From positions 2,329-66,328 of IMG/VR virus record IMGVR_UViG_3300029188_000196: a stretch of 64,000 nt of DNA; one strand, written 5' to 3'. Below, in pieces: positions 3,645 through 64,000 of this stretch. The DNA comes from a virus. The notes beneath the pieces are model-generated. The model worked only from the letters and a program-made list of their open reading frames with translations, was not told where the DNA came from and made no database searches. Numbering within the stretch: the first letter of the stretch is position 1; each line of letters opens with the position of its first letter. Made by a program: the position numbers and the translations under genes.

Positions 3645-4132
3645 TTTTCTTCAACCTTTTCCATTTCATTTTCCAATCGTGCTCTCCAAGCAAGATAGTC
3701 TGCTTTACGGATTGCTGTGTATTTTTCGGCTAAAACTTTCAGACTCCGCCTCTGATCTTCCACATCCAAAATAGTATCGATTCGCTGATCATTATCGTCC
3801 GTAACAATGTCAATCCGCATTGGCAAGTCAAACAGATATTGCAATAAGAAACAAAATTCGCATGTATTGGCTGCAAGGTAGGCTCGTGTCTGCGAAGAAA
3901 TTAGATTGATTTTCCCCTTTTTGCAGTCACGGAGTAAATGTACCATCTCTGGACGTTTGAAGATTTCTTTATTGCCTGTAATGTCAATGTACACACCGAA
4001 CAGCTCTTTATCTGTATCATCTTTGAATTTTTCAGCATAGTAGGAACTATGATAGGCTACTACGGCATCTTTAGAGCGTTCCCATAGTTTTGCCAGTTTT
4101 ACATAGCCGCCGACCTTATATTTGCTGTCCAT
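3641..4132 (-). CDS. Resolvase-like domain protein, catalytically degenerate
   Basis: Aligns to a resolvase N-terminal domain ('GGYVKLAKL...KRPEMVHLLRDCKKGKINLISSQTRAYLAANTCEF'). The Y-A-R-V-S nucleophile motif is replaced by Y-V-K-L-A, so the catalytic Ser is absent. Its stop overlaps the recombinase start. Confidence 0.55.
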   Translation of the reverse strand: MDSKYKVGGYVKLAKLWERSKDAVVAYHSSYYAEKFKDDTDKELFGVYIDITGNKEIFKRPEMVHLLRDCKKGKINLISSQTRAYLAANTCEFCFLLQYLFDLPMRIDIVTDDNDQRIDTILDVEDQRRSLKVLAEKYTAIRKADYLAWRARLENEMEKVEEK

Positions 4133-5105
4133 TTATAGCACCTTCTTCCGGCTGAACACTCCAATACCATCTCCGTTTCTTCTGATAGCAATGAATGCCC
4201 ATTTCCGTTTTCGCCATCCGTGCAACTCGTTTGCTGATGCCCTCATTATCCAGACGGCAATAAATTTCATTTGCACTCATATCACCATTTGCAAGAAAAT
4301 GTTTGATCCAATAGGCCGCCTTCTGCTGCTCAGAGTCAAATTTAGGCTTATCATCTTTCTGCTGAAATTCATAGGTTTGTGGTTTGCATTCCAGCCACTG
4401 AAAGCCACTCTCGGCAGAAATGGAAAAGCGAATGTCTTCTGCTGTAGGAGCAAGGCTGTTTTTGATTTGGTGTACGATTCTTATATCGGAGTTTTCCGTA
4501 TCTCGTTCTACCTGCAGGACGCTCCGCGCAGCTGCCACAACATCAATACTTCCAAGGCTACGGTACAGTCCCTTGGAGCCTTCCTTTTTATTAAGGTGTC
4601 CGATTAGAACGATGGCGCAGTCGTAGCCAGTAGCCCACATTCCAAGGCGGCGCATAAGTTTTCGTGCCCTACCTGCGATTTGCAAATCCGAATCGCTACC
4701 GAGGTATGCTTGGATCGGGTCAATCACGACCAATCGCGGCCGGAATTCAACAATTGCCTGACGGATACGCTCATCATCCAAGGTAAGACCGTTGTATACT
4801 TCCTCATTAATGAAAGCTATCTTCCTGCAATCTGCTCCGCATCGTTCCAGACGGGGTTTTATTGTGTCCGAAGCGTCATCTTCGGAGCACTGATAAATCA
4901 CCTTTTGTGGTACACCTACTTTACAGCCGTCTGGGGTCTTTCCTCCTGTCGAAAGCTCTGCAATCAGATTCATCATCATAGTGGATTTTCCATCGCCAGG
5001 ATCTCCCTGCAATAATGTGATTTTCCCAATTGCAATAAACGGATACCATAACCATCGTACATCTGTTGACTGAACTTCGCTGTACAACGTCAGTAACTGT
5101 TCCAC
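4116..5105 (-). CDS. AAA_25 / RecA-like (KaiC/DnaB-like) ATPase with C-terminal HTH-like region
   Basis: Walker A 'GDPGDGKST', Walker B 'LVVIDPIQ', then 'IGHLNK'. Typical of RepA/primase-associated helicases on mobile elements. GTG start. Confidence 0.75.
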   Translation of the reverse strand: MEQLLTLYSEVQSTDVRWLWYPFIAIGKITLLQGDPGDGKSTMMMNLIAELSTGGKTPDGCKVGVPQKVIYQCSEDDASDTIKPRLERCGADCRKIAFINEEVYNGLTLDDERIRQAIVEFRPRLVVIDPIQAYLGSDSDLQIAGRARKLMRRLGMWATGYDCAIVLIGHLNKKEGSKGLYRSLGSIDVVAAARSVLQVERDTENSDIRIVHQIKNSLAPTAEDIRFSISAESGFQWLECKPQTYEFQQKDDKPKFDSEQQKAAYWIKHFLANGDMSANEIYCRLDNEGISKRVARMAKTEMGIHCYQKKRRWYWSVQPEEGAINGQQI

Positions 5106-8146: not shown

Positions 8147-10415
8147 TTACACAGCATCTTTACGCTCACGCTTTGCAGCCATCGTCAGGTATCGGCGGTA
8201 CTGAATGCTGAATCCATAAACCTTATACGGAGCATCCACATACTCAACCGTGCCATCCATATTGCACCGCTTGAAACCTCGGAAGCTGTTCAGCGTCCGG
8301 CGGTTTCCAACCGTAGTAAGGGTCACACCGAAGGTCGTCTTGAACTCGACCACATCTCCTTTGACCGTTTCCTTTTCAATGAAAGCACAGTAGATGCCCT
8401 TTTCAAAATGAAGCAGGTCGGGAGCCTCGGCAATCAGCTCCGGTGTAAGTTTCAGGCTACGCTTACGAGTACTCGTAGGGTTGCCATCTTCATCCCTATA
8501 TGCACTACTCTGAACATTCAGCCCATATACCTTCAGAGGCATACCTGCCGTGTTCTGTTCAGGAAGCTGTTTCAGGCAGTCGATGAAGACATCGAAGTTC
8601 TTCTTCATGTTTCCGAGTTCTCCCTGTTCGTTTTCCAGCATACTGCGCTCTTTTCGCAGGTCATCCATACGCTTCCGAATCTCATTTGCAAGCGTGTTAT
8701 AGGTTTCGACCACAGAACCTTCCTCGACATCGATGCTGTACATTCTCGTTCCAAGGTCACTGGCTGTCAGTCCATTGCGGATGTCCATTTCAAGGTCACC
8801 AATGGAAAGGTCACCGTTTGCAATGGCTTCTTTTAAATTCTCGTTCTGCTCCATCGCCGCCTCACGCATTGCAACCACCTGTTTACCGATGATTTCATTC
8901 AGTTTGACTTCCAATTCTTTCACCTGATCGTCCAGAGCTTCGATACGCTGAGCAGAAACTGCACTGTTTTTCACTTTCCGGTAAAACTTGTCGTAGGCAG
9001 CCTTAAACATCCGGACGATATCCGAACCATCACCTTTTGTCTCGTAGTCATACTTTAGTCGGTAGAGCATTTCCATGAAGCTCTGTTCCAAAGCGACCTC
9101 ATGGTAGAGTATGGTAGAGTTCGGAAGGACACCGCTCCTCGGCGGCTTCCCGTTCCGCATCTGTCATCCGCCCCAGTTTGCTGCGGCAGTATTTCTTCTG
9201 GTCAAGAGTTCCAGTCTTGGGTTCTTCCCCTTCCCGTACTCCGGCTTTCCTCTTACAACGCCAGACCGGGAATGCAAAAGTGTACTTCTCCAGATATTCA
9301 CCGCCGTCCTCACCTGTTGCCTGCAAACTCCGCTCATCCGTATAGCCAGATGCCACGTTCGTGTAGGTGAGGCGGAAGAATCCGGCACCGCACTCTTCTC
9401 CATCCGGCAAATGCGTTCCACAGACAAGGTTTACAAAGGGACGTTTCACAATGGTCTTCTTCTCTTTGGTCTTGATGTCTCCCCGGTTGGGTTTGTTGTA
9501 CATCATGGCCTGTACTTTATCCCAAGTCAGACGGTCGATGATTGCGACATGATGGTTTTCGATATAGTAGCGAGGTGCTTCACCACTGTTCTTTGAAGAC
9601 CGATGGGTTAGGAAGTCTTTTGTGATGGTCTTCTGCATCTCAATGTCGCCCACATACTTCTCATTCCGAAGAATGATCATAACGGAACCAGCTGCCCATT
9701 TCTTTCCGTTTACTGTCGGCCGCCCCATCTCATTCAATTCTGCCGCGATTTTAGTGGCGGACAGTCCCAGCAGATACCGCTCAAAGATGTAGCGGACGGT
9801 GGCCGCCTGATCGGAGTTGATGATCCATTCACCATCCGGACCCATATCGTAGCCAATCATGCGCTTCAGATTGATCTGCGGACTGCCGCGCTGGAACTTG
9901 CGCTGGAGTGCCCAGCGGATGTTGTCCGAAATGGAGCGGCTTTCGTCTTGCGCCAGAGCCGAAAGAATGGTCAAAATCAATTCACCAGTTGCATCCAGCG
10001 TATCGATATTCTCTTTTTCAAAGAAAACGCCCACCGGAGGATTGAGCTGTCGAAGCTCACGGATACAAGTTAGTGTATCAACCGTGTTACGGGCAAAACG
10101 GGAAATGGACTTCGATACGATATAATCGATTCTTCCTGCCTTGGCATCATCCATCATGCGGTTGAACTCCACGCGGTGCGCACGGCTCGTGCCGGACAAT
10201 GCTTCGTCCGCATAGATGCCAGCGAAACGCCAGCCCGGTTTGCTGGTGATGAAACTCGTATAAAAAGCTTTCTGGGTCGTATAGGAAGTCTGCTGACTTT
10301 CATCTCCCGTGGAAACACGGCAGTAGGCAGCCACACGGATGTTGTTCTGCATCTTCAACTGACCGCCATTTTGCACAGAGCGTTTGGTTGCCGGAATAAT
10401 AGAAACATTTGCCAT
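8147..10415 (-). pseudogene. Large serine recombinase disrupted by a frameshift (10-bp tandem duplication)
   Basis: An N-terminal ORF (9099..10415; 'VAAYCRVSTGDE...SKSISRFARN') and a C-terminal ORF (8147..9160; coiled-coil and C-terminal domain) sit in frames that differ by +1. Deleting one copy of ATGGTAGAGT at 9101-9120 restores a single reading frame of about 755 aa ('...CPSELYHEVALEQSF...'), matching the neighbouring intact paralog. Confidence 0.8.
9101..9120. repeat. Perfect 10-bp tandem duplication (ATGGTAGAGT x2) causing the recombinase frameshift
   Basis: Read directly from the sequence. Confidence 0.9.
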
Positions 10416-10429
10416 AGTGCTTTCTCCTC

Positions 10430-12661
10430 TCATTTTATAAACCGTTTCCGGTATGCGTTATCCCGCATGACCTGTCCATCATAGTAGCTGGCGGTATTGC
10501 GGAAGTCTTCAATATTGCTGTCCATCTCCACTTTTGTTCGAGTGTCATCGAACCAATGAACACTGTACTTCAGCGGAGAGTAAACCGTGATGGACAGGAT
10601 GAACGCTTTGCAGTGTTCCCCTGTCAATCCATTCAAGAATGCTACGGTTCCCTCTCGGCCCTTGGGAAGCTGTCTCATCCACTGCACCGCTTCTTCTCTG
10701 CGGTCGTAGTCATCTTCCAGCTCATCCCAGTAGTCTTCCAGATAATCGAGCTTGTCCTCCAGCTTCTGGGCTTCGGTCTCATCCTGCTCTATCCGTTTTC
10801 TCAACCGCTCGATTTCCTCTTTTCGCTCAGTCAGGGCCGCTTCATCTATCGTTTCATCTCCAAGCAAGTCCCGCCGGGTCTCCATCGCATCTTTCTGGCT
10901 TTGAAGAAGGCTCATTCTCTTATGGGCAGCTTCTGCGTCTTTCTGGAGTGCGATGATTTGCTTTTTGTAGAAACAACGGTCACGCTCCATGAAGTCAATC
11001 TTCTGCAGGTTTTCAAGCCGTGCCTGCATCTGAATCACAAAGTCATCGGCCTCATGAGTAAGAAAGTCGGTATTCTCTGCGTACCGTCCGCTCATAATGT
11101 CTGCCACGCTCACATCATCCCGAATGGGGGCGCTCGACAACTGGAAGCGTTCTATCACGGCCCTGCGGATAACACGGACAATCTGCTCTTCGTAGACACT
11201 TTCGGCATGGCAGATGCTCTTTCCATTGTTCTGCTTCGCCGAAGGGCAAAACCATATAGGATTCAGATTTCTATTTCTTACATTGAAAAATCGTCCGCAG
11301 CTTCCGCAGATAAGCCGTCCTGAAAAAGCCCACTGTGTTTTTTCCTCTCTCTTGTGCGAATCCGATTTTGCATTGACGATCTTTTGCACCTTTTCAAACA
11401 GTTCCCTGCTCACAATCGCTGGATGATGGTCTTTAATGTAGTACTGCTGAACTTCACCTTTGTTTTTCCGCACTTCATGCGACAGATAGTCAGCAGTATA
11501 GCTTTTCTGTACCAGAACATCTCCAGTATACCGTTCATTGCGAATCATCCCAGCAATCCGACCGTTTGTCCATCCGGTGTCAAGCTCGCTGTTAAGCTGA
11601 CCTTTCTTGGATTTGACCTTGCGCAACTTCTGTGCACTGCTCTCCGGAGCAGGAATGTGCTCACGGTTCAATTTCCTTGCGATGTCTGCAAACGAGAACC
11701 CTTCTGCGACCTCTTGGAAGATGCGCCGGATAACTACAGCTTCCTCCTTAACGATTTCAACTGCCTTATACTTGTAGCCGCTTTCGCTGGTAATCATCTC
11801 ACCATTGTAGCGGTATCCATAGATGTCAACATTCCGCACATCTCCACGCTTAAAGCGCATCTTATTGCCAAGGTTGATGTTGCCGGAGATGCTTCGGCTT
11901 TCCTCTTGCGCAATAGCCCCCAGTGTAGTAAGGATGAATTCACTGGTCGGGTCTGCTGTATCGAGATTTTCTTTCTCGAATAGAATCGTCACATTGTTTT
12001 CTCGAAGCAAATCCAGTGCCATCATAAAATCAGCCGTATTTCGGGCGAATCTCGAAATCGACTTGCAAATCACGCGGTCGATTTTCCCTGCCTTGCAATG
12101 CCGAAGCAGTCTGCGGAAGCCGGTACGCTTTTCACTGTTCGTGCCAGAGATACCATAGTCCGAATATACACCGATGGGATTCCACTCAGGGTTGGCTTCA
12201 ATCAGCTGGTTAAAGTACCGTTCCTGCGTTTCATAGGAGTTTTCCTGGTCAGATGAATCCGTTGAAACACGGATATAAGCGGCAACATTCAGCGTTCCAG
12301 TCTTCTGCTTCGTTGCACGGAAGCTCTCAGCAGAGATGAAATCACCCGGTTTTGCTTCATATACCAATTCCTGAGAGGGCTCATCACTCCTCTCAACCGG
12401 AATCGTAATGTCCTGCCGTACCACGGCGGCCTTCTTTGTGGTGACTGCTTGGTCGATGAACGCCTGCAATGCGGGGTCAACTTTCTTTTTTTGTTGAGTA
12501 GACTTGTCTTTCGTCTGATTTTTCTTGGGTGAAAAAAGAACCGCAGCGGAACCCAGTTCAGGCAGGTTCACAGCTGCGGTCTTGTTAGATGTCTTTGGCT
12601 GTACCGACTTTTCTTCAGTCATCTTCTGCAATTTTGCCAAGAAATCAGTTGTTGTACTCAT
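10430..12661 (-). CDS. Large serine recombinase (integrase) with about 125-aa N-terminal extension
   Basis: 'LNVAAYIRVSTDSSDQ...CKSISRFARNTADF' catalytic domain, recombinase domain, zinc ribbon 'CGSCGRFF', coiled coil. AAAGGAGAG RBS precedes the first ATG, so the Lys/Thr/Gln-rich extension is translated. Its stop overlaps the start of the next recombinase (ATGA). Confidence 0.9.
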   Translation of the reverse strand: MSTTTDFLAKLQKMTEEKSVQPKTSNKTAAVNLPELGSAAVLFSPKKNQTKDKSTQQKKKVDPALQAFIDQAVTTKKAAVVRQDITIPVERSDEPSQELVYEAKPGDFISAESFRATKQKTGTLNVAAYIRVSTDSSDQENSYETQERYFNQLIEANPEWNPIGVYSDYGISGTNSEKRTGFRRLLRHCKAGKIDRVICKSISRFARNTADFMMALDLLRENNVTILFEKENLDTADPTSEFILTTLGAIAQEESRSISGNINLGNKMRFKRGDVRNVDIYGYRYNGEMITSESGYKYKAVEIVKEEAVVIRRIFQEVAEGFSFADIARKLNREHIPAPESSAQKLRKVKSKKGQLNSELDTGWTNGRIAGMIRNERYTGDVLVQKSYTADYLSHEVRKNKGEVQQYYIKDHHPAIVSRELFEKVQKIVNAKSDSHKREEKTQWAFSGRLICGSCGRFFNVRNRNLNPIWFCPSAKQNNGKSICHAESVYEEQIVRVIRRAVIERFQLSSAPIRDDVSVADIMSGRYAENTDFLTHEADDFVIQMQARLENLQKIDFMERDRCFYKKQIIALQKDAEAAHKRMSLLQSQKDAMETRRDLLGDETIDEAALTERKEEIERLRKRIEQDETEAQKLEDKLDYLEDYWDELEDDYDRREEAVQWMRQLPKGREGTVAFLNGLTGEHCKAFILSITVYSPLKYSVHWFDDTRTKVEMDSNIEDFRNTASYYDGQVMRDNAYRKRFIK

Positions 12662-36399: not shown

Positions 36400-38025
36400 C
36401 TAAAAAACGATCATGTCACGTTCGTCGTAGACGCTTCCCTGCTGCTGTCCTTCGTTTCGGATGCAGCGGTCCAGTGCCATGATCGCAGCGACGATACCAT
36501 CGATCTTCTCCGGCGACTTCGCCTTTGTCGGCTTGATGTTGCCCGCCGGGTCGGTATCCACGACCACATTGCCGGCCATCCATGCCATGACCGGGTTGCC
36601 GCCGTGGATAATTCTGCCTTCCATCAGGAGCTTGTAGAACTCCTTGGTAGGCGGGCTCATATCTTTGAAGCCCTGACCAAAAGGCACGACCGTAAATCCC
36701 ATCCCCTCAAGGTTCTGGGTCATCTGCACGGCTCCCCATCGGTCAAAGGCAATCTCTAAAATGTGATAGGTCTTGCCCAGTTCCTCGATGACCTTTTCGA
36801 TAAAACCGTAGTGGATGACATTGCCCTCGGTCGCCATCAGGTAGCCCTGCTGGTACCAGACATCATACGGAACGGATGCCCTGCGCACACGCTGGGGGAT
36901 CGTATTATCCGGTATCCAGAAGAACGGAAGCATGATGTATTTTTCTTCCGAGGTTCTGGGCGGGAACATCAGCACAAAAGCAGTGATGTCTCCGGTGCTG
37001 GACAAGTCCAGTCCTCCATAACAGTCACGGCCTTTGAGAGTTTCCATATCGATAAGCTGGTTGCCGAGGTCATAGATGTGTTCTGGGATGAACCGGGTCA
37101 GCGAGGACACCCACATATTCAGACGGAGCTGCTTGAACACATTCTCCTCTGCCGGATTGTCCGGTGCCTCCTGATACGCATCCCGAACACGCTGGATCTG
37201 AATGGTCTGGCCGAGAGAGGGATTGGCTTTATACCAGTTCGCTTCGTCGTGCCAGTCATCTTCATCCGTTAGTCCGTAGACCACGGGGTAAAAGGTGTGG
37301 TCAATCTTACGTCCAGCCAACAAGTCAAGTGCCTTCATGTGGAGTTCGTAACAGATGCTCTCCTTGTCCGTGCCGGCCGTGGTGATCAGGAAGAACAACG
37401 GCTGCTCACGGGCATCACCGGAGCCTTTGGTAAGGACATCATAGAGCTTTCGGTTGGGCTGGGCATGAACCTCATCCAGCACCAGACCCGACACATTCAA
37501 GCCGTGCTTCGTGCCGACTTCGGCAGACAGGACTTGGTAAAATCCTACATTGCCGTAATTCACGATACGCTTCGTTGCCGCCATAATCTTGCACCGCTTC
37601 AAGAGTGCCGGTGTCATCTGCACCATCTGGTGCGCGACATCAAAGACGATGGATGCCTGCTGGCGGTCGGCGGCAGCACCATAGACTTCGGCAGAGGGTT
37701 CGTTATCGGCAAAGAGCAGATACAGAGCCACCGCAGCGGCAAGTTCGGACTTGCCGTTCTTCTTACCGATTTCGACATAAGCCGTGCGAAACTGACGGTT
37801 TCCTCTCTCGTCCACGATGCCGAACACATCCCGGATGATCTGTTCCTGCCACGGAAGCAGCCAGAACCGTTTTCCCGCCCACTTGCCTTTAGTGTGTCGG
37901 AGGTTCTCAATAAAGGTCACTGCCCGGTCTGCTTTTGCGGCATCGTAGTGGCAGGTTGAAAGCATGAACCGGCTTGGCTTATAGTCCTTCAGTTTCGGAT
38001 AGTTTTTTGGTCTGCACTCTGCCAT
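36400..38025 (-). CDS. Terminase large subunit (Terminase_1 family)
   Basis: ATPase Walker A 'EIGKKNGKSELAA', 'LVLDEVHAQ' Walker B/DE and a C-terminal nuclease region. 541 aa. Confidence 0.9.
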   Translation of the reverse strand: MAECRPKNYPKLKDYKPSRFMLSTCHYDAAKADRAVTFIENLRHTKGKWAGKRFWLLPWQEQIIRDVFGIVDERGNRQFRTAYVEIGKKNGKSELAAAVALYLLFADNEPSAEVYGAAADRQQASIVFDVAHQMVQMTPALLKRCKIMAATKRIVNYGNVGFYQVLSAEVGTKHGLNVSGLVLDEVHAQPNRKLYDVLTKGSGDAREQPLFFLITTAGTDKESICYELHMKALDLLAGRKIDHTFYPVVYGLTDEDDWHDEANWYKANPSLGQTIQIQRVRDAYQEAPDNPAEENVFKQLRLNMWVSSLTRFIPEHIYDLGNQLIDMETLKGRDCYGGLDLSSTGDITAFVLMFPPRTSEEKYIMLPFFWIPDNTIPQRVRRASVPYDVWYQQGYLMATEGNVIHYGFIEKVIEELGKTYHILEIAFDRWGAVQMTQNLEGMGFTVVPFGQGFKDMSPPTKEFYKLLMEGRIIHGGNPVMAWMAGNVVVDTDPAGNIKPTKAKSPEKIDGIVAAIMALDRCIRNEGQQQGSVYDERDMIVF

Positions 38026-55818: not shown

Positions 55819-57213
55819 TCACCCGTAAAGGCGTGCTTTGACGGCTCCAATCAGGTCATCCTGCCGGATTTCCTTCCTGTCGAGAGCTTTCATAACATCT
55901 TCATCTACGGTATCTTTCATCAGGATGTGGTGGATCGTTACAACGCTTTTCTGGCCCTGCCGCCACAGACGAGCATTCGTCTGCTGGTAAAGTTCCAGCG
56001 ACCATGTAACCCCGAACCAAATCAGGATGTGCCCGCCAGACTGGATATTCAGTCCATGCCCTGCGGAAGCCGGGTGAATCAGAGCAACTGAGATTTTCCC
56101 ATCACACCAGTTCTCCATATCCTTGCTGCTTTTGAGTTCCCTCACCGGAGTATGCTTCTTTTTGAAATACTCAATGATTCGATCCTTATCGTGCTTGAAC
56201 CAATATGCCACCAGAACGCTCTGCCCATTAGCCAATTCGATTAGTTCGTCCAAGGCTTCCAGTTTTTTGTTGTGGATCTCACGAACCGTGCCGTTCTCAT
56301 CGTAGACAGCTCCGTTCGCCATCTGGTGGAGCTTCCCGGACAATGCTCCTGCGTTTGCTGCTTCCACATCTCCGTCTACCATTGGCAAAATCAGGTCTGC
56401 TTTCATCTGGTCATAGAGTTTGCGTTCTCGTTCATCCATCTGGATCTCGACCTTGTTGTAAATGCACTCTGGCATATCAAGGTAATCCAGAGCCTTCATG
56501 GAGATGCAAATATCTGAGATTCGGTCGTATATCAGTTTATCTGCGCCCTTCCGCAGCTCGTAACTGAATACAACACCCGTATTGGGATTCATGCTTCCGG
56601 GTCGGAAGTACGCATAACGGTAATCCGTAATGAACCGTCCCAGCCGTTGTCCCATGTCCAAGATTCCAATTTCTGCCCACAGATCCATGAGACCATTCGG
56701 GCTGGGTGTACCGGTAAGCCCTACCACTCGTTTGAACTTCGGGCGAATCGACTTGAGCTTTTTCCACCGGGCGCTTTTGTTATTCTTAAACGAGGACAGT
56801 TCATCAATCACGAGCATATCAAAGTCCCATTCGAGCTGATGCTCCTCATAGTACTTCACCAGCCACGGAATGTTTTCACGGTTGATGGTGTAGATGATGG
56901 ATTTCCGCTCCAAGGCTTTGATTCGCTGCTTCTCCGTTCCGACCATGACGGACACCGTCAAATACTGAAGGTGCTCCCACTTGATCACTTCTGCCGGCCA
57001 AGTGTCCCGTGCGCCCCGGAGCGGAGCTACGATCAAGACCTTCTGAATGAGGAACTGCTCCAGTACCAGCTCTTCGATTGCCGTCAAAGTGATAACCGAC
57101 TTACCGAGTCCCATGTCCAGAAGCAATATTGCAACAGGATGCGTCAGGAGAAAACTCGATGCAAACCTCTGATACTCATGAAGCTGTTCTTTTTTCAACT
57201 TCTCACTTTCCAT
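55819..57213 (-). CDS. SNF2-family helicase
   Basis: 'LLDMGLGKSVITLTAI' motif I, 'LVIDELSSFKN' DExx motif, and helicase-C motifs in the C-terminal half. Confidence 0.85.
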   Translation of the reverse strand: MESEKLKKEQLHEYQRFASSFLLTHPVAILLLDMGLGKSVITLTAIEELVLEQFLIQKVLIVAPLRGARDTWPAEVIKWEHLQYLTVSVMVGTEKQRIKALERKSIIYTINRENIPWLVKYYEEHQLEWDFDMLVIDELSSFKNNKSARWKKLKSIRPKFKRVVGLTGTPSPNGLMDLWAEIGILDMGQRLGRFITDYRYAYFRPGSMNPNTGVVFSYELRKGADKLIYDRISDICISMKALDYLDMPECIYNKVEIQMDERERKLYDQMKADLILPMVDGDVEAANAGALSGKLHQMANGAVYDENGTVREIHNKKLEALDELIELANGQSVLVAYWFKHDKDRIIEYFKKKHTPVRELKSSKDMENWCDGKISVALIHPASAGHGLNIQSGGHILIWFGVTWSLELYQQTNARLWRQGQKSVVTIHHILMKDTVDEDVMKALDRKEIRQDDLIGAVKARLYG

Positions 57214-57216
57214 TTC

Positions 57217-57681
57217 TTACCCTCCATCAGTGGAGTTCTTTATAGCGGGGATATTATCGAAATCCGAAAAAGGATCTCCGTACTTTGCCACAACTGCATC
57301 GTACTCCCTGAACTCCACATCACCCATCTGCTTCACCACATCTTCCACTGCTCTCAGGATCGGGATTTTCGCTCCAACACCCTCTGTGCTGTCTCCGGGG
57401 CGGTATTCTCGAATCGCATCAATGACCGGACGAATCTGTTCAAAGCGATCTACACAGTAGACTGGAAATCCGAGTTCTTCAAGCTGTATCTTCCGCTTCA
57501 CTTGCAACGGGCGCATCATCTTGCCCGGAGCTTTCAGCTCACAAAAACCGACGTGACCTCCAGGAAGAAGCACAAGACGATCCGGCACACCGTTCATCGT
57601 CTGGGAAGAAAACTTTAACGCCAGACCTCCCTGCTTCTTCACTTCATCACGGAAAGCCTGTTCAACCACATACTCTCTCAC
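57217..57681 (-). CDS. VRR-NUC domain nuclease
   Basis: 'GVPDRLVLLPGGHVGFCELKAPGK' PD-(D/E)xK core, as in VRR-NUC proteins. Confidence 0.8.
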   Translation of the reverse strand: MREYVVEQAFRDEVKKQGGLALKFSSQTMNGVPDRLVLLPGGHVGFCELKAPGKMMRPLQVKRKIQLEELGFPVYCVDRFEQIRPVIDAIREYRPGDSTEGVGAKIPILRAVEDVVKQMGDVEFREYDAVVAKYGDPFSDFDNIPAIKNSTDGG

Positions 57682-57699
57682 TGTCCTCGCCTAATCCTT

Positions 57700-58188
57700 T
57701 CCCTATCCTTCTCAGCCCTTCCGCTTTGCGTGTTTCTCAATGTTGCTCTTCGCGCGCGCGTATATGGGCGAATCGCGTGTTTTACCTGTTTTCTGTATGT
57801 CTATCTGTCTATTTTTATATAAATACATAGATAGTAATTATTAAGCAACAGAGCAACAACAGTACAGAAAACACAGTAAAATCAACAACTTTTTGGCGTT
57901 GCCGAGAACTGTTGCCCTCGTGTTGTGTTGCTGGACTGTTAAGCAACACCTTTGTTGACACTCGGCACTTTTTCTCGAAAATTACCGATTTTGTTGCCTG
58001 TTGCTCGCCCCTCATTTCTGAGCAACGGCAACAGCAACAACCCAAAACAGAGTTATTTTCCGCTCTACATTCCCATCTTCTCCTTTCCTTCACCCGTAAC
58101 CCAATCAACAAGAGTTGCCCTAGAGCGTCCCTCTGCTCTCCTGCAACACCTGTCAAGTCGGTTCGCTGTGACAGCCCATGACGTTCTC
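57700..58188. other. Putative phage origin of replication: iteron array (GTTGC/GCAAC x >12) plus AT-rich inverted-repeat unwinding element
   Basis: 'TTAAGCAACA' occurs twice; many AGCAACA/TGTTGC copies lie at 57840-58070. The AT-rich palindrome CTATCTGTCTATTT-ttatata-AAATACATAGATAG is at 57800-57840. The region lies between the VRR-NUC and primase genes and contains no ORF. Confidence 0.55.
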
Positions 58189-60837
58189 TCATTCTTCGTC
58201 ACCTGCATCACGGACATAGACATTCACGATGCCGTAGCCCTTGACGCGCTGCTTTTTAGGGCTTCGCTTCCAGCCATCGATACGCTCCATCATAGCGATG
58301 ATTGAATTGGAGTCCTGACGCCCAATAGAACCACGATCCCGGCCGAAGCACTCGCACCAGATCTCCTGATTGCATACGACCGTACGCTTCACCGTTCCCG
58401 GCAGCGTGGACACACCATCGTTGCTGAACTCGGTTCCCTGAATATAGTCCCGACGTTGGAACAGAGTAAGGCTGTCCCAGTTTGCAGGGAGCAGCTTGTC
58501 CAGATACTCACGCACCATAGGCTCACGGTCATCCGTCTCCATCGACATCTTCTGCTGATGGATCGCTTCGATACCGATATCACCTTCGAGGTACAGTTTC
58601 TCGCCCTGCTCATAGCGATACAGAGCTTCCGCCCAAATCTGCTTAACCTCCTCATCCGAGAGTTCCCACGAGGGGCGGCAACCACGCACACGGTCTTCTT
58701 CTTTGAAGCCCGGAGTATTGACAGGCCAGAAACGGCGGTTACCAGTAACATCGCGGAGATAACCGTTTTCCGCATTCGTTGTGCCGATGAAAACACACTG
58801 GCGCGGATGCGGCGTGGCACGGCGGCCGAATGCAGCGCGGAAGATGTCATCCTGACGAGATAGAAAGCCTTTCAGGATTTCAGTGTCGGCCTTGCGCAGA
58901 CCTGCCAGCTCACCGATTTCCATGATCCAGTAGCCCTGCAGTTTTTCGGCAGCAGTCTTATCCTTGGTATCGTTCAGCTGAAGAGAGTCGTTGTACCAGT
59001 TTCCGCCCATGCGGCGAATCAGTGTAGACTTGCCACAGCCCTGCTCACCCTTCATGACCAGCATGGAATCGAACTTTATGCCCGGATGCTTAACACGAGC
59101 AATAGCAGCCACAAAAGTCTTTCTGGTAACGGCACGGATATAGGGCGTATCTTCTGCGCCCAAAGTAATATACAGAAGCGTGTCCAGCCGTTCGGTACCA
59201 TCCCATTTGGGCAGCGCATCCAGCCACTGCTTGATAGGATGGTAGGAGCGGTCATCTGCGATTTTGGTAAGACCCGCCTTGAAGTTACGGTCGGAAAAAG
59301 TACCATAGTGAGCTTCTAAGTACGCCATAAGCTGCGCATCATCCTGATCGCGCCAGAATTCTTTCTCCGGCCGGCCCCACGGTGCTTTTCCCGTAAATTC
59401 AATGTTATCTGCCAAAGCGTTATAGCGAATGCCTTTCAATTCCGGGTCATTGCTCAGGATCAAAAGGAGGTTACGGATGCTGTTCACAAGCTGTCCGGAT
59501 TTCGAGTAGTCCAGTGCAGTCTTCCACGCATCCGGGTCAGCAGGAGTACCACCGACATTGTTGGCAGATACTGTTGCACCGGCTGTGTTACTGGCGTTAC
59601 CGCTGTTACCGCTTTTGGGCGGCTTACCACCCATCAGCTTGAAATCCGCTTCCGCTGCGGCTTCACGCATCTGGAGCAGCACCTTTTTCACTTCACCATC
59701 TGCGGCCGCGAACTCACACATTGCTTTGTAGGACGGCAGCTTCGTGGTTTCCGTCACCGTGACAGATTCGCCATCCAGATTGCCGAAGCGGTGGACACGG
59801 ACAGCATCAAAGGAATTCAGCAGCATACCACTTGCCGGGTCGGTAGCATGATGGGAATACATAAACTTGTTCTCATATACCACGACACCAGCAACAGAGT
59901 CTGCCGGGATATAGCTGTATCGGTCCGGAGAGGCAGTCGGCTCATACACCTCGTTGAGAAAACTGCCAATAGCAGACGGAATGTCGTATGCCTGACAGAA
60001 TGCACCGATCAGGTTATTTTTCGTCAGTGGGTCTTTCTGCTTCTGCATCATGTGCTGAACGATCTTCGTCTGCCGGGAAGAAACCGGGTACTCGCTGACA
60101 TCGTGCCAGTTCTTGTACCTAGCAAGGACGCTGTCCGGATTCAGCAGGTCACCATGCAGTTCCCGGTACACATATACGCCGTCCTTAGAGGTGCTGGGCC
60201 AGTACATTAGTCGGTTCGGTTCGTAGGTAGTGTCATCGAACATCTCGATGTCGATTTCCTCAGCCACCTTACGAGCAATTGCTACATATTCCTCTGCCAT
60301 AACCGAACGCGACAGAGGAATGACCAAACGGAGGCGTGGAGCTTCCGGCTTATGCTTGTGCGTGGAATAGATGATGCCGGCGAAGTCCGTAGTAAAGTCC
60401 AGAACATCTTCAATACCAGGCACACCGTAATCGATGTCCAGCGTGATCGCAGAGCGGGACAAAACATCCTGCTTGCCACGATGACCACCTTTCAGCACGG
60501 CCATGACCATGCCGCCGACATCCTTGATCTCGCCCTGCTTGGTACGGCTGAAAGTCGCATACTGTGCCATCGTTTCATCGGTGTACACCGTCTTGGCAAG
60601 GCGCTCCTTAAGCTGTTTGAATGTGATTTTATACGGTTTCCAATTCTTCTGGTTACGATTTTTGCCTACAGCGATGTCCAGAACGAAATCATCGTGGGGA
60701 GACAACTCCACCTCGATTTTAGGATGAGGCTGCCCTGCGGCAGCCGCCTCCTTCTGCATTATCGTGGTGTTGGCCGACTCGACCGGGACTGCGGTGGTCT
60801 CCATGCCCATCACAGTATTCTCTTTCTTTTCACTCAT
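58189..60837 (-). CDS. Bifunctional primase-polymerase / VirE-type (D5-like) helicase
   Basis: 882 aa; C-terminal P-loop 'VMKGEQGCGKSTLIRRMGG' of the VirE/D5 family and N-terminal prim-pol-like region. GGAGGA RBS. Confidence 0.8.
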   Translation of the reverse strand: MSEKKENTVMGMETTAVPVESANTTIMQKEAAAAGQPHPKIEVELSPHDDFVLDIAVGKNRNQKNWKPYKITFKQLKERLAKTVYTDETMAQYATFSRTKQGEIKDVGGMVMAVLKGGHRGKQDVLSRSAITLDIDYGVPGIEDVLDFTTDFAGIIYSTHKHKPEAPRLRLVIPLSRSVMAEEYVAIARKVAEEIDIEMFDDTTYEPNRLMYWPSTSKDGVYVYRELHGDLLNPDSVLARYKNWHDVSEYPVSSRQTKIVQHMMQKQKDPLTKNNLIGAFCQAYDIPSAIGSFLNEVYEPTASPDRYSYIPADSVAGVVVYENKFMYSHHATDPASGMLLNSFDAVRVHRFGNLDGESVTVTETTKLPSYKAMCEFAAADGEVKKVLLQMREAAAEADFKLMGGKPPKSGNSGNASNTAGATVSANNVGGTPADPDAWKTALDYSKSGQLVNSIRNLLLILSNDPELKGIRYNALADNIEFTGKAPWGRPEKEFWRDQDDAQLMAYLEAHYGTFSDRNFKAGLTKIADDRSYHPIKQWLDALPKWDGTERLDTLLYITLGAEDTPYIRAVTRKTFVAAIARVKHPGIKFDSMLVMKGEQGCGKSTLIRRMGGNWYNDSLQLNDTKDKTAAEKLQGYWIMEIGELAGLRKADTEILKGFLSRQDDIFRAAFGRRATPHPRQCVFIGTTNAENGYLRDVTGNRRFWPVNTPGFKEEDRVRGCRPSWELSDEEVKQIWAEALYRYEQGEKLYLEGDIGIEAIHQQKMSMETDDREPMVREYLDKLLPANWDSLTLFQRRDYIQGTEFSNDGVSTLPGTVKRTVVCNQEIWCECFGRDRGSIGRQDSNSIIAMMERIDGWKRSPKKQRVKGYGIVNVYVRDAGDEE

Positions 60838-62342: not shown

Positions 62343-64000
62343 TCAGTCTTTGCGGTACCACTCGCACTCGTAACCATCTGCACGAAGCGGGAGCTTGTCA
62401 TCGACCCAGTCCGGTGATTCGGCCATCATATCACAGAGTTCCTTGACTGAGGATTTACCATTGGGGACTTCCACGATCATTTCATCGTGAACGTGGGCAA
62501 CGATGTCAAACCCGGTGGCATCGACACGAAGCATAGCCTCTGCCAGAATATCTCTGGCGATTGCCTGAATGCAGTTCTCAACGAGTTTCGGGCCGTAAGT
62601 CATGATACGCTCCCATTTGCGTGTCTTACCGACACCCATGTAGGTCAGTTCCATACGATTGAAGCTGTTCAGCCGTTTTTCTGGCTCGATGTAAGCCAGC
62701 TTCCGTCCAGACGGCAGACAGATGAACAGCTTGTGGTCATAGTAACCAATCTTCAAACGGCCAGCTGTCTGCATCTTTCCCGTATCAAGAGCTTTGTTAG
62801 CGGCACGGTCAACATCCCACCAGAACTTCGTAATAGCAGGACTGGCGGCGCGCCACTGCTTGATGATATCCGGGAGTTCTTCCTCTTTCAGTCCTTTATC
62901 GATAGCTCCCATCGACTTCATTGCACCAACGCCGCCACCATAACCGAGGGCCAGCTCAGCGACCTTTCCGGTCGTTCTCAGCTCACCGTTGATGCCATGC
63001 TTCTCAACAGGTACATGGAACATCTGGCTGGCAGAAGCGCAATAGATATCCTTTCCTTCACGGAAAACATCCAACCGCCACTGCTCCCCTGCCATCCATG
63101 CAAGAACACGAGCCTCGATCTGGCTGAAGTCTGCCACAATGAACCGGCAGCCCGGTTTCGGAATAAACATGGTACGAATCAACTGAGAGAGCACATCTGG
63201 GGTGTTTTCGTAAATCATCTCAAGAACACCGAACTCTCCCATACGAACGAGCGTCCGGGCCTCTGCCAGAGTTTCAATGTGATTCTGCGGCAGGTTTTGA
63301 AGCTGCACGAGACGCCCTGCCCAACGACCAGTACGATTGGCACCCATAAACTGAAAACAACCGTGTATCCGGCCATCCTTGCACACGCTCCGTGCTGCTG
63401 CTTCATATTTTTTGACTGAGGACTTTGCCATCTTTGCCCGGAGTGCCAAAACCTCGATTGCTTCCGCATTAGAGGAGGCGTTCTTCTCTAGTTCTTTCAT
63501 GGTCTGCTTGACGGCCTTTTTAGAGAGGCTGTCGATTTCAACGCCCTGCTCCGAGAGCCATCCTTTTAATTGGGATACGCTATTGGGATTGTCACAGCCA
63601 GTCAGTTCATAGGCTCTTGCGGTAGCGGTTTCGCTGTGCATCACATCGCAGGCGATTGCCTGCTTTACCAGCTCCATATCTACTAGCACACCACGGTCAT
63701 TGATACGCTGGTCAAGGCGATACAGCTCCATTTCGTGCGGACTGATTGGATACAACGAGATTTTCTTCTCGATGTCACGTTCTGTCTCAACATCCTGGCA
63801 GCAGTAATATTTGAATTTGTCCCATTTTTCCGGTGCATGTTCCGGGAGATTCCAAGTGCGGCCACTGTTCAGTTTGGTAGGTTTGCACGGAACACAAAAG
63901 TAGCGGATCAGGTCGTGCCCCTCCTTATCTTTCTGCTCTACTGTTTTCAGGGCTTCTGCACAGCCCTCCAGAGACAGCGGCAGCGACAAGTAACAGGCCT
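62343..64000 (-). CDS. Family A DNA polymerase (partial; N-terminus beyond the window end)
   Basis: Motif A 'FIVADFSQIEARVLAW', motif B 'RTTGKVAELALGYGGGVGA', motif C 'VHDEMIVEV'. The ORF remains open up to the window edge. Confidence 0.85.
   Translation of the reverse strand, partial: ACYLSLPLSLEGCAEALKTVEQKDKEGHDLIRYFCVPCKPTKLNSGRTWNLPEHAPEKWDKFKYYCCQDVETERDIEKKISLYPISPHEMELYRLDQRINDRGVLVDMELVKQAIACDVMHSETATARAYELTGCDNPNSVSQLKGWLSEQGVEIDSLSKKAVKQTMKELEKNASSNAEAIEVLALRAKMAKSSVKKYEAAARSVCKDGRIHGCFQFMGANRTGRWAGRLVQLQNLPQNHIETLAEARTLVRMGEFGVLEMIYENTPDVLSQLIRTMFIPKPGCRFIVADFSQIEARVLAWMAGEQWRLDVFREGKDIYCASASQMFHVPVEKHGINGELRTTGKVAELALGYGGGVGAMKSMGAIDKGLKEEELPDIIKQWRAASPAITKFWWDVDRAANKALDTGKMQTAGRLKIGYYDHKLFICLPSGRKLAYIEPEKRLNSFNRMELTYMGVGKTRKWERIMTYGPKLVENCIQAIARDILAEAMLRVDATGFDIVAHVHDEMIVEVPNGKSSVKELCDMMAESPDWVDDKLPLRADGYECEWYRKD

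What the first reader, a model, noticed from the sequence alone, without database searches (positions are those of the whole stretch)
57700..58188. Iteron-rich putative replication origin between the VRR-NUC and primase genes
More than 12 GTTGC/GCAAC pentamers, two TTAAGCAACA copies and an AT-rich inverted repeat (CTATCTGTCTATTT-ttatata-AAATACATAGATAG) fill 490 bp with no ORF. The region is next to the prim-pol/helicase gene, which is the typical ori location.
Basis: seen in the sequence. Interest (0 to 1): 0.5.

Follow-up and report, generated by a model that had tools for sequence, protein, structure and literature searches.

The report
SaPI-type iteron replication origin in phage
The 507-bp gap right after a gut phage's primase-helicase gene is very probably the phage's replication origin, built like the known origins of staphylococcal pathogenicity islands; the same design recurs in most related phages examined, so it is a clear but ordinary member of a known kind.

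Summary
The gap 57682..58188 holds 14 GTTGC/GCAAC pentamers against 0.85 expected (P 5e-13). Both TTAAGCAACA copies and the AT-rich inverted repeat are also present. The one long ORF in the gap (125 codons) is spurious.

The upstream gene is a primase fused to a helicase that matches SaPI1 Rep (PDB 7PDS, E 1e-65). Its predicted structure ends in a winged helix. SaPI Rep proteins bind 5-6-nt iterons placed immediately downstream of rep, on both sides of an AT-rich centre and in opposite orientation. The window shows this layout:
- GTTGC...GCAAC modules.
- A TGTTGC pair 8 bp apart.
- A 103-bp AT-rich spacer.
- GCAACA on the far side.

The layout recurs in relatives. In 58 distinct related gaps nearly all have a 5-mer at 6-12 copies, with the core changing between lineages (GGAACA, GCAACA, GTAACA). 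The distance between the inner sites stays at 92-106 bp in the eleven loci where I measured it. Staphylococcus phage 3A has the same plan.

A conserved alternating purine-pyrimidine block (CATATACGCGCG) lies in the spacer. I found no description of it in the papers I searched.

Verdict: new member of a known kind. Function has not been tested experimentally.

The parts
58189..60837 (-). Primase-helicase gene (882 aa). It has an N-terminal primase part and a Rep-like SF3 helicase half. This is the presumed initiator of the origin.
   Evidence: Pfam VapE-like PF05272, E 4e-70. PHROG 256 and 9765, DNA helicase and primase. Residues 436-834 match PDB 7PDS, SaPI1 Rep with DNA, at E 1.2e-65. Foldseek of the AF2 model against the PDB puts 7PDS first, E 7e-28.
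58210..58380 (-). Predicted C-terminal winged helix (protein residues 820-876). It is the presumed iteron-binding domain.
   Evidence: The AF2 model shows strand, helix, helix and a beta-hairpin at fragment residues 385-441, with pLDDT 84-89. This segment diverges more between iteron classes (37-53% identity) than the ATPase core does (51-74%). In SaPI Rep the C-terminal winged helix recognises the iterons (PMC9371898).
57682..58188 (.). The whole non-coding gap, proposed as the origin region.
   Evidence: The gap is 97.4% identical to L002, against 92.0% for the VRR-NUC gene and 94.9% for the SNF2 gene downstream.
58143..58147 (+). Iteron core, GCAAC on the + strand. In the gene direction this is the first site, 41 nt after the primase stop. 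Together with 58114-58118 it forms module 1 around the hairpin GAGAGC...GCTCT.
58114..58118 (+). Iteron core, GTTGC on the + strand. Module 1 partner.
57993..58038 (.). Module 2. It holds five cores (57993, 58000; 58022, 58028, 58034) arranged as TGTTGCCTGTTGCTC-N13-GAGCAACGGCAACAGCAAC. It includes the only tandem array, AGCAAC x3.2.
   Evidence: This palindrome produced the weak sub-threshold HDV-ribozyme hit.
57898..57947 (.). Module 3. It holds four cores (57898, 57911, 57927 as GTTGC; 57943 as GCAAC) and includes the second TTAAGCAACA copy.
57831..57858 (.). Inner iteron pair on the primase side of the spacer. The cores are at 57845-57849 and 57853-57857, 8 bp apart. On the - strand the block reads CTGTTGTTGCTCTGTTGCTTAATAATT. 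It is the best-conserved block between the window and L003.
   Evidence: Alignment A2. The same pair with 8-9 bp spacing is seen in L003, L051, L070, L079 and L073.
57767..57844 (.). AT-rich spacer, the presumed DNA-unwinding element. It contains the imperfect inverted repeat 57801-57834.
   Evidence: It includes the second most AT-rich 60-mer of the 64-kb window. The inner-iteron distance is 103 bp here and 92-106 bp in all the other related loci where it was measured.
57751..57766 (.). Conserved alternating purine-pyrimidine block, CATATACGCGCGCGCG on the - strand. Its role is unknown. It may be a melting or priming site.
   Evidence: It is the longest alternating run in the window. A run of 12 nt or more, mostly 19-21 nt, lies in 51 of 58 distinct related gaps and is usually the only one in the locus. 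The consensus is ACACG-CATAT-ACGCGCG-TATAGAG.
57731..57746 (.). Iterons on the far side of the spacer, in the opposite orientation. There is one exact core (GTTGC on + at 57742-57746, which is GCAACA in the gene direction). A 5-of-6 copy (GAAACA, 57731-57736) follows 10 bp further on.
   Evidence: L003 has two exact copies 10 bp apart, and L051 has two copies 13 bp apart, at the same place. The block AGCAACATnGnGnAACAC is conserved with L003.
58150..58174 (.). Inverted repeat CTGTCA-N13-TGACAG just after the primase stop. Its role is unknown and it has no T-run.
   Evidence: GCTGTCACAG is conserved in L003.
57217..57681 (-). VRR-NUC-like endonuclease gene, the downstream boundary of the element.
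   Evidence: PHROG 93, endonuclease, E 4e-22. It is followed by an SNF2 helicase gene at 55819..57213.

Best explanation
The gap 57682..58188 is the phage's origin of replication, of the type used by self-loading SF3 helicase initiators such as SaPI Rep.

Proposed mechanism (inferred):
1. The primase-helicase encoded just upstream binds the G-C-A-A-C-A iterons through its C-terminal winged helix.
2. The iterons are arranged as inverted GTTGC...GCAAC modules. The last module straddles a ~100-bp AT-rich spacer.
3. Two helicase rings assemble facing each other across that spacer and melt it.
4. The primase part of the same protein then makes the first primers, and the phage family-A DNA polymerase extends them.
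5. The extra primase-proximal modules (13 of 14 sites) probably recruit or concentrate initiator.
6. The conserved alternating CG/TA block in the spacer is a candidate nucleation point for melting or priming.

What is shown: the motif enrichment, the conserved layout across relatives, the homology of the protein to SaPI1 Rep, and the predicted winged helix.

What is inferred: binding, melting, double-ring loading, and origin activity itself.
For: 1. Enrichment. There are 14 GCAAC cores against 0.85 expected, and 10 RGCAACA against 0.12.

2. Initiator. Residues 436-834 match SaPI1 Rep (7PDS) at E 1.2e-65. The AF2 model matches 7PDS along its whole chain, E 7e-28, and ends in a winged helix.

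3. Published definition. SaPI origins are penta- or hexanucleotide iterons immediately downstream of rep, with an AT-rich centre and at least two iterons on each side in opposite directions. Rep binds them through its C-terminal winged helix (PMC9371898; PMC7581432).

4. Conserved grammar. The window, L003 and L051 all show (-,+) modules, then a '-' pair 8-9 bp apart, then a 96-104-bp spacer, then '+' site(s).

5. Same layout, different letters.
- 75 of 78 further loci have a gap of at least 169 bp between the primase-helicase and VRR-NUC genes.
- In 58 distinct gaps nearly all have a 5-mer at 6-12 copies against 0.3-1 expected. The cores are GGAACA, GCAACA, GTAACA or GGCAA. ACACAAC and AACAAC classes occur in L048-L066.
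- The inner-site distance is 92-106 bp in every locus where I measured it.

6. Cultured phages.
- Staphylococcus phage 3A has 9 TGAT[G/A]CAACA sites with a 105-bp inner distance.
- Clostridium phage phiCT453A and Paenibacillus and Sporanaerobium prophages have comparable arrays.

7. DNA-level rather than RNA-level signal. Both strands fold equally well against shuffles (z -5.4 and -6.1). The conserved features are the motif sequence and its orientation.

8. Conservation. The gap is 97.4% identical to L002, against 92-95% for the downstream genes.

9. Precedent in a phage. A SaPI5-like origin was recently predicted in Enterococcus phage Abitsa by the same logic (PMC13517437).
Against: - There is no experimental evidence for this element or for any close relative. 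None of the cultured-phage examples has a mapped origin that I could find.
- The iterons are very asymmetric. Thirteen lie on the primase side and only one exact copy plus one 5-of-6 copy on the far side. SaPI origins are described as roughly half on each side.
- The cumulative GC skew shows no inflection at the site. This is uninformative here because all genes are on one strand.
- The covariation between winged helix and iteron class is confounded with overall phylogeny. L051 shares the GCAACA core but has a rather different winged helix.
- A transcriptional role for some elements cannot be excluded.
Confidence: 0.8

Rival explanations
1. The gap is mainly a transcriptional control region. 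It would hold a promoter for the VRR-NUC/SNF2 and later genes inside the AT-rich segment, and the GCAACA sites would be operators for a phage regulator.
For: - The gap sits between two co-directional gene blocks.
- In many relatives a conserved TATAGAG lies ~35-40 nt upstream of the VRR-NUC start codon. That geometry would suit a -10 element.
- Inverted short repeats flanking an AT-rich stretch also fit operators.
Against: - No sigma-70-like promoter is found on the coding strand in the window gap or in the L079 gap.
- The window itself lacks the TATAG part of the conserved block.
- Fourteen sites spread over 400 bp, with a fixed ~100-bp inner distance, are unusual for an operator.
- The motif class changes together with the adjacent initiator lineage.
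- The two readings are not exclusive, since origins often contain promoters.
Confidence: 0.1
2. The gap encodes a structured non-coding RNA, for example an HDV-like ribozyme, on the - strand. The GUUGC/GCAAC motifs would form its stems.
For: - Rfam RF02682 (HDV-F-prausnitzii) hits 57963..58026 (-) at 23 bits, E 0.05-0.17.
- The - strand folds well against shuffles, z -5.4.
Against: - The score is far below the gathering score of 44. The hit rests on the GTTGCTC-N13-GAGCAAC palindrome, with 7 nt where the model has 19.
- The + strand folds just as well, z -6.1, as expected for DNA inverted repeats.
- No Rfam family reaches threshold in 16 related loci.
- In relatives the motif sequence and orientation are kept, rather than pairing with compensatory change.
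Confidence: 0.03
3. The 125-codon ORF 57815..58192 (-), translationally coupled to the primase gene by an ATGA overlap, is a real small gene. The pentamers would then be a codon artefact.
For: It has an ATG start overlapping the primase stop, and the ORF is intact in L001 and L002.
Against: - It has no PHROG hit, and its only Pfam hit (PF25301 CUT_C, 17.6 bits) is below the 30-bit cutoff.
- Its sequence is implausible.
- It is absent from L003.
- It shows 4 synonymous against 7 non-synonymous changes with no third-position bias.
- The pentamers occur in both orientations and continue beyond the ORF.
Confidence: 0.02
4. The element is a different cis site built from repeats, such as a packaging (pac/cos) site or a partition centromere.
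For: Such sites also consist of short repeats bound by a dedicated protein.
Against: - The terminase genes lie about 20 kb away (36400..38025), and pac or cos sites normally sit next to them (established knowledge).
- No ParA or ParB genes turned up among the genes I scanned. That scan covered only part of the window.
- The element is strictly linked to the primase-helicase gene across relatives.
Confidence: 0.03

Closest known systems
SaPI replication origins (SaPI1, SaPIbov1, SaPI5), bound by Rep or PriRep self-loading helicases
   Same: - The initiator is a sequence homologue (7PDS, E 1.2e-65). As in SaPI5, primase and helicase are fused.
- The origin lies immediately 3' of the initiator gene.
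- The iterons are 5-6 nt long.
- An AT-rich segment is flanked by iterons in opposite orientation.
- The initiator has a C-terminal winged helix.
   Different: - The element is in a complete ~60-kb tailed-phage genome, not a satellite.
- It has more sites (14) and they are strongly skewed to the rep side, 13 to 1(+1).
- The array is organised as four inverted modules.
- The spacer carries a conserved alternating CG/TA block that I did not see described for SaPIs in the papers I could read.
- The next gene is a VRR-NUC nuclease.
Putative origin of Enterococcus phage Abitsa (Efquatrovirus), PMC13517437
   Same: It is a phage origin predicted by the same logic: a SaPI5-PriRep-like helicase plus repeats around an AT-rich region.
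   Different: - Abitsa has seven 10-bp repeats and a different, lytic phage lineage.
- Its helicase resembles PriRep5 rather than Rep1.
- Its origin is also untested experimentally.
SCCmec Cch2 origin (PMC7581432)
   Same: The helicase binds short 5-nt iterons in the intergenic region directly downstream of its own gene.
   Different: - It has only three direct iterons.
- Cch2 is of the PriRep5/D5 type.
- Its primase is a separate PolA-like protein pair.
Phage P4 ori/crr with the alpha protein (from my own knowledge, not tested here)
   Same: One polypeptide carries a primase, an SF3 helicase and a C-terminal winged-helix origin binder. It recognises short repeats (TGTTCACC) in both orientations. 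That motif resembles the TGTTCC/TGTTGC cores seen here.
   Different: P4 needs two separated cis regions, ori and crr. I did not test homology of alpha to this protein.
SV40/polyomavirus and papillomavirus core origins (from my own knowledge)
   Same: An SF3 helicase initiator binds pentanucleotides (GAGGC) arranged as inverted pairs. These are flanked by an AT tract and a palindrome that melts first. Two hexamers load head to head.
   Different: - Those are eukaryotic viruses.
- Their origin-binding domain is N-terminal to the helicase and has a different fold.
- There is no sequence relationship between the sites.
pRN1 ORF904 origin (PMC4234260)
   Same: The origin lies just downstream of a prim-pol/SF3-helicase/winged-helix gene. 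The authors noted similar elements in phages.
   Different: The pRN1 element is a ~100-nt stem-loop and no iterons have been identified in it.

Membership tests
SaPI-type (Rep self-loading helicase) iteron origin | The origin lies immediately downstream of the initiator (rep or pri-rep) reading frame. | tested here: met
   The first iteron core (58143-58147) begins 41 nt after the primase-helicase stop codon (58189-58191). The definition comes from PMC9371898.
SaPI-type (Rep self-loading helicase) iteron origin | Multiple (6-12) short penta- or hexanucleotide iterons. | tested here: met
   There are 14 GCAAC cores, 11 of them GCAACA, P 5e-13 to 6e-15. This is slightly more than the published range.
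SaPI-type (Rep self-loading helicase) iteron origin | An AT-rich region with at least two iterons on each side, pointing in opposite directions. | tested here: met
   Two cores (57845, 57853) lie on one side. One exact core plus one 5-of-6 core (57742-46, 57731-36) lie on the other side in the opposite orientation. Relatives L003 and L051 have two exact copies on each side. In the window itself the second far-side copy is degenerate.
SaPI-type (Rep self-loading helicase) iteron origin | The AT-rich region is roughly central, with about half of the iterons on each side. | tested here: not met
   The cores split 13 to 1 (+1 degenerate). The same skew is seen in L003 (9:2), L051 (7:2) and phage 3A (8:1).
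SaPI-type (Rep self-loading helicase) iteron origin | The cognate initiator is a Rep-family SF3 helicase with a C-terminal winged-helix domain. | tested here: met
   phmmer against 7PDS gives E 1.2e-65. Foldseek gives E 7e-28 over 460-477 columns. A winged helix is predicted at residues 820-876.
SaPI-type (Rep self-loading helicase) iteron origin | The initiator binds the iterons specifically and melts the origin, and the fragment supports replication. | not testable with these tools
   This needs EMSA or footprinting, plasmid replication assays, or marker-frequency sequencing.
Iteron-plasmid / lambda-type origins (RepA, pi, TrfA, lambda O) | Tandem direct repeats of ~17-22 bp at regular spacing, often with DnaA boxes. 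In lambda the origin lies inside the initiator gene. | tested here: not met
   The only tandem array is AGCAAC x3.2. The sites are 5-6 nt, of mixed orientation and irregularly spaced. No DnaA box with up to 1 mismatch lies in the gap. The element lies outside the initiator gene.
HDV-like ribozyme (Rfam RF02682) | A score at or above the family gathering threshold, with the nested double-pseudoknot core. | tested here: not met
   The score is 23 bits against 44, and the insert region is truncated. No hit was found in 16 related loci.

The most novel reading that the evidence does not exclude
The conserved alternating purine-pyrimidine block in the spacer may be a separate core origin element. 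Its consensus is ACACG-CATAT-ACGCGCG-TATAGAG, and in the window it reads CATATACGCGCGCGCG at 57751-57766. It keeps its sequence across lineages whose iterons differ, so something other than the specificity-determining winged helix may read it. One candidate reader is the prim-pol domain, using it as a fixed primer start site. Another possibility is that it acts as a Z-DNA- or cruciform-prone nucleation point for melting. If so, this large family of Firmicutes phage replicons, and perhaps the SaPI replicons if they derive from it, would share a three-part origin code: variable iterons, a ~100-bp AT-rich ruler, and an invariant CG/TA block.
Probability: 0.3. Interest if true: 0.5.

Novelty: new member of a known kind. 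Interest (0 to 1): 0.35.

Why it matters
Most phages known only from metagenome sequences have no mapped origin.

- Annotation rule. This case gives a simple, transferable rule for a very large group of gut and Firmicutes phages. More than 5,700 homologues of the initiator scored E <= 1e-10 in one search. The rule is that the origin is the gap of about 170 bp or more just after the VapE/Rep-type primase-helicase gene. It can be recognised by a 5-6-nt G-N-A-A-C-A-like iteron in inverted modules, a ~100-bp AT-rich spacer and a CG/TA block.
- Correcting gene calls. The rule explains why gene callers place spurious ORFs on these gaps. Examples are the window ORF, L068 4843-5088 and probably phage 3A ORF076.
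- Specificity. The single-base iteron series (GGAACA, GCAACA, GTAACA) paired with divergent winged helices offers a natural set for studying how origin specificity changes.
- Engineering. It gives a compact initiator-plus-origin cassette that could be tested as a replicon for gut Firmicutes that are hard to manipulate genetically.
- Evolution. It is consistent with an evolutionary link between the SaPI replicon and this phage module.

Tried and rejected
- Coding reading. I rejected the 125-aa ORF 57815..58192.
- Known RNA families. Only a sub-threshold HDV-like hit appeared, driven by an iteron palindrome. Nothing reached threshold in 16 relatives. The window has no tRNAs.
- RNA structure. Both strands fold equally well, so the signal is DNA symmetry.
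- Promoter and terminator scans. No coding-strand promoter was found. One weak terminator-like hairpin is made of iterons, and one antisense promoter-like match is within chance.
- GC skew. It falls monotonically with no inflection, which is uninformative because all genes are on one strand.
- DnaA boxes. None lie in the gap.
- Tandem repeats. The only one is AGCAAC x3.
- Host identification. An exact 27-mer and the primase protein found nothing in the representative genomes. The only near-identical public records are an unannotated human faecal phage scaffold, MT837827, and IMG/VR contigs.
- Literature.
  - No paper held contains the conserved 12-mer.
  - I found no mapped origin for the VapE/VRR-NUC/SNF2 phage module.
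  - Ubeda et al. 2007 (PMC1964853) is not held, so SaPI origin details are taken from later papers that cite it.
- Winged helix against iteron class. The trend fits, because the winged helix is the most divergent segment. It is confounded by phylogeny and is not decisive.

Full report
**Setting**

The window is a tailed, probably temperate phage or prophage from the human gut. All genes run on the - strand.
- PHROG scans identify large serine recombinases, an endolysin, a tape-measure protein, a major head protein, a portal and a large terminase.
- The replication block lies at 55-64 kb. In the direction of transcription it reads: family-A DNA polymerase (62343..63989), a DUF932 protein, an 882-aa primase-helicase (58189..60837), the gap in question, a VRR-NUC-like nuclease (57217..57681) and an SNF2 helicase (55819..57213).
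- The only near-identical public records are an unannotated human faecal phage scaffold (MT837827, 99.3%) and two IMG/VR contigs.
- No host genome was found.

- The region 57742-58147 has 14 exact GTTGC/GCAAC pentamers, out of 120 in the whole 64 kb. For the 507-bp gap this is 14 against 0.85 expected (P 5e-13).
- GCAACA occurs 11 times against 0.26 expected, and RGCAACA 10 times against 0.12.
- No 400-bp window in 200 Markov simulations held more than 8 sites, against 13 observed. The next-best real window has 4.
- Both TTAAGCAACA copies and the AT-rich inverted repeat are present. The repeat lies in the second most AT-rich 60-mer of the window.

The statement 'no ORF' needs correcting. A 125-codon ORF (57815..58192, -) overlaps the primase stop. 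I consider it spurious for these reasons:
- Its translation is implausible.
- It has no PHROG hit, and its only Pfam hit is below the curated cutoff.
- It is absent from L003.
- It shows 4 synonymous against 7 non-synonymous differences from L002, without third-position bias. The VRR-NUC gene shows 23 against 12.

**Anatomy**

Read in the direction of the genes, the sites form four modules. Each has GTTGC on the left and GCAAC on the right.
1. 58147/58114, around a small hairpin.
2. 58038-57993, reading GTTGCTGTTGCCGTTGCTC-N13-GAGCAACAGGCAAC.
3. 57947-57898.
4. A TGTTGC pair 8 bp apart (57857-57845), then a 103-bp AT-rich spacer, then GCAACA (57746-57741) followed 10 bp later by a 5-of-6 copy, GAAACA.

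Inside the spacer, next to the far-side iteron, lies CATATACGCGCGCGCG (57766-57751). It is the longest alternating purine-pyrimidine run in the window.

**The neighbouring protein**

- Residues 436-834 of the primase-helicase match PDB 7PDS at E 1.2e-65. 7PDS is the SaPI1 Rep-DNA complex (PMC9371898).
- I built an AlphaFold2 model of residues 436-882 from 20 homologues. Its mean pLDDT is 73.6.
- The model ends in a strand, two helices and a beta-hairpin with pLDDT 84-89, which is a winged helix.
- Foldseek puts 7PDS first (E 7e-28, 460-477 aligned columns). Other SF3 primase-helicases follow: NrS-1, poxvirus E5/D5, SaPI5 PriRep5 and papillomavirus E1.

**What is known about such proteins**

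- SaPI Reps are both helicases and initiators. Their C-terminal winged helix recognises penta- or hexanucleotide iterons.
- Six to twelve iterons lie immediately downstream of rep. An AT-rich region sits in the middle, and at least two iterons on each side point in opposite directions.
- SaPI5 has primase and Rep fused, as this phage does.
- The window's gap fits this description except in one respect: the iterons are heavily skewed to the rep side.

**Comparative evidence**

This is the strongest part of the case.

The first set of relatives was found through the VRR-NUC protein.
- L003 (VRR-NUC 76% identical) has a ~590-bp gap with 11 GCAAC cores against 0.76 expected.
- L051 and L049 (about 60% identical) have a 225-bp gap with 8 CGGCAAC sites against 0.33 expected.
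- Both show the same grammar as the window: a '-' pair 8-9 bp apart, a spacer of 96-104 bp, and two '+' copies.
- Between the window and L003 the conserved islands are exactly the iteron blocks that border the spacer.
- More distant loci keep the layout but change the letters. L048, L052, L061 and L065 use ACACAAC...GTTGTGT, and L054, L056 and L060 use AACAA-type cores. The inner distances are 92-106 bp.

The second set of 78 loci was found through the Rep-like half of the protein.
- In 75 of them a VRR-NUC gene follows after a gap of at least 169 bp. Most gaps are 200-300 bp.
- Nearly all of the 58 distinct gaps have a 5-mer at 6-12 copies against 0.3-1 expected. The cores are mostly GGAACA, with GCAACA, GTAACA or GGCAA in some.
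- 51 of the 58 contain an alternating purine-pyrimidine run of at least 12 nt, usually 19-21 nt. It is generally the only such run in the 4.3-kb locus.
- These runs align to a consensus ACACG-CATAT-ACGCGCG-TATAGAG, followed by a T-tract and the far-side iteron.

Cultured and genomic examples share the plan.
- Staphylococcus phage 3A has 9 TGAT[G/A]CAACA sites with a 105-bp inner distance.
- Clostridium phage phiCT453A has a comparable array.
- So do prophages of Paenibacillus and Sporanaerobium.

Two further points:
- The winged-helix segment is the most divergent part of the protein between iteron classes, at 37-53% identity against 51-74% for the ATPase core. This fits a role as specificity determinant but is confounded with phylogeny.
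- The gap is better conserved between the window and L002 (97.4%) than the downstream genes are (92-95%).

**Rivals**

- RNA element: unlikely. Both strands fold equally well. The only Rfam hit is a sub-threshold HDV-like match caused by an iteron palindrome. Sixteen relatives give no hit.
- Promoter-operator reading: cannot be fully excluded. No coding-strand sigma-70-like promoter is found, and the window lacks the TATAG part of the conserved block.
- Classical iteron-plasmid or lambda-type origins: these do not fit. There are no long tandem direct repeats and no DnaA boxes.
- GC skew: uninformative.

**Verdict**

- The element is best described as a SaPI-type (Rep, self-loading SF3 helicase) origin in a gut phage. 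That makes it a new member of a known kind.
- The same inference has already been published for an Enterococcus phage (PMC13517437).
- This analysis adds three things: the breadth of the pattern, the fixed ~100-bp inner spacing, and the conserved CG/TA block. I did not find that block described in the papers I searched.
- Binding, melting and origin activity remain untested.

Noticed in passing
window 57751-57766; also L070 5049-5069, L079, L073, L056 2925-2945 and others: A conserved alternating purine-pyrimidine block lies in the spacer of the origin-like element. Its consensus is ACACG-CATAT-ACGCGCG-TATAGAG. It is present in 51 of 58 distinct related gaps and keeps its sequence across different iteron classes. 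No paper I could search holds the 12-mer.
   Followed up: partly
window 58150-58174: An inverted repeat, CTGTCA-N13-TGACAG, lies directly after the primase-helicase stop. GCTGTCACAG is conserved in L003, which carries a longer version. It has no T-run, so it is not an obvious terminator.
   Followed up: no
window 57955-57982 (+ strand): A promoter-like match, TTGACA-16-GAAAAT (10 of 12), points antisense into the primase gene from inside the iteron array. It is within chance expectation. It could matter if transcription activates the origin.
   Followed up: no
window 1800-3644, 9099-10433, 10430-12661 (all - strand); 4116-5105: There are three large serine recombinase genes, two of them adjacent, plus an AAA/DnaB-like ATPase gene beyond the lysis module. 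This may reflect a multi-recombinase integration module or a nested mobile element.
   Followed up: no
window ~280-380: This is the most AT-rich stretch of the whole window (80-88% AT), near the window edge and beyond the recombinase genes. It may be an attachment site or a phage-end region.
   Followed up: no
L068 4843-5088; L151 (Staphylococcus phage 3A) 2784-2984; window 57815-58192: Gene callers and GenBank annotation place small ORFs on these iteron arrays, for example ORF076 of phage 3A. These calls are probably annotation artefacts.
   Followed up: partly
L003 977-1228; L074, L080, L108, L115-L134 (gaps of 440-790 bp): In some relatives one or more small ORFs are inserted between the origin-like element and the VRR-NUC gene. 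In L003 this is an 83-aa Cys-rich protein. The spot just after the far-side iteron therefore seems to tolerate insertions.
   Followed up: no
L151 = NC_007053.1 40184-40523 (Staphylococcus phage 3A): A cultured S. aureus Triavirus carries the same GCAACA iteron core (TGAT[G/A]CAACA x9) with a 105-bp inner spacing. The array lies downstream of its virE/VapE-type helicase gene. This would be a convenient experimental model, and it hints at an evolutionary link with the SaPI replicon.
   Followed up: partly
window vs L002 (IMGVR_UViG_3300029469_000115): There is a step in nucleotide identity along the module: primase 3' kb 99.4%, gap 97.4%, VRR-NUC 92.0%, SNF2 94.9-96.7%. This suggests that the initiator and its origin are inherited together, with a recombination boundary just downstream.
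   Followed up: partly
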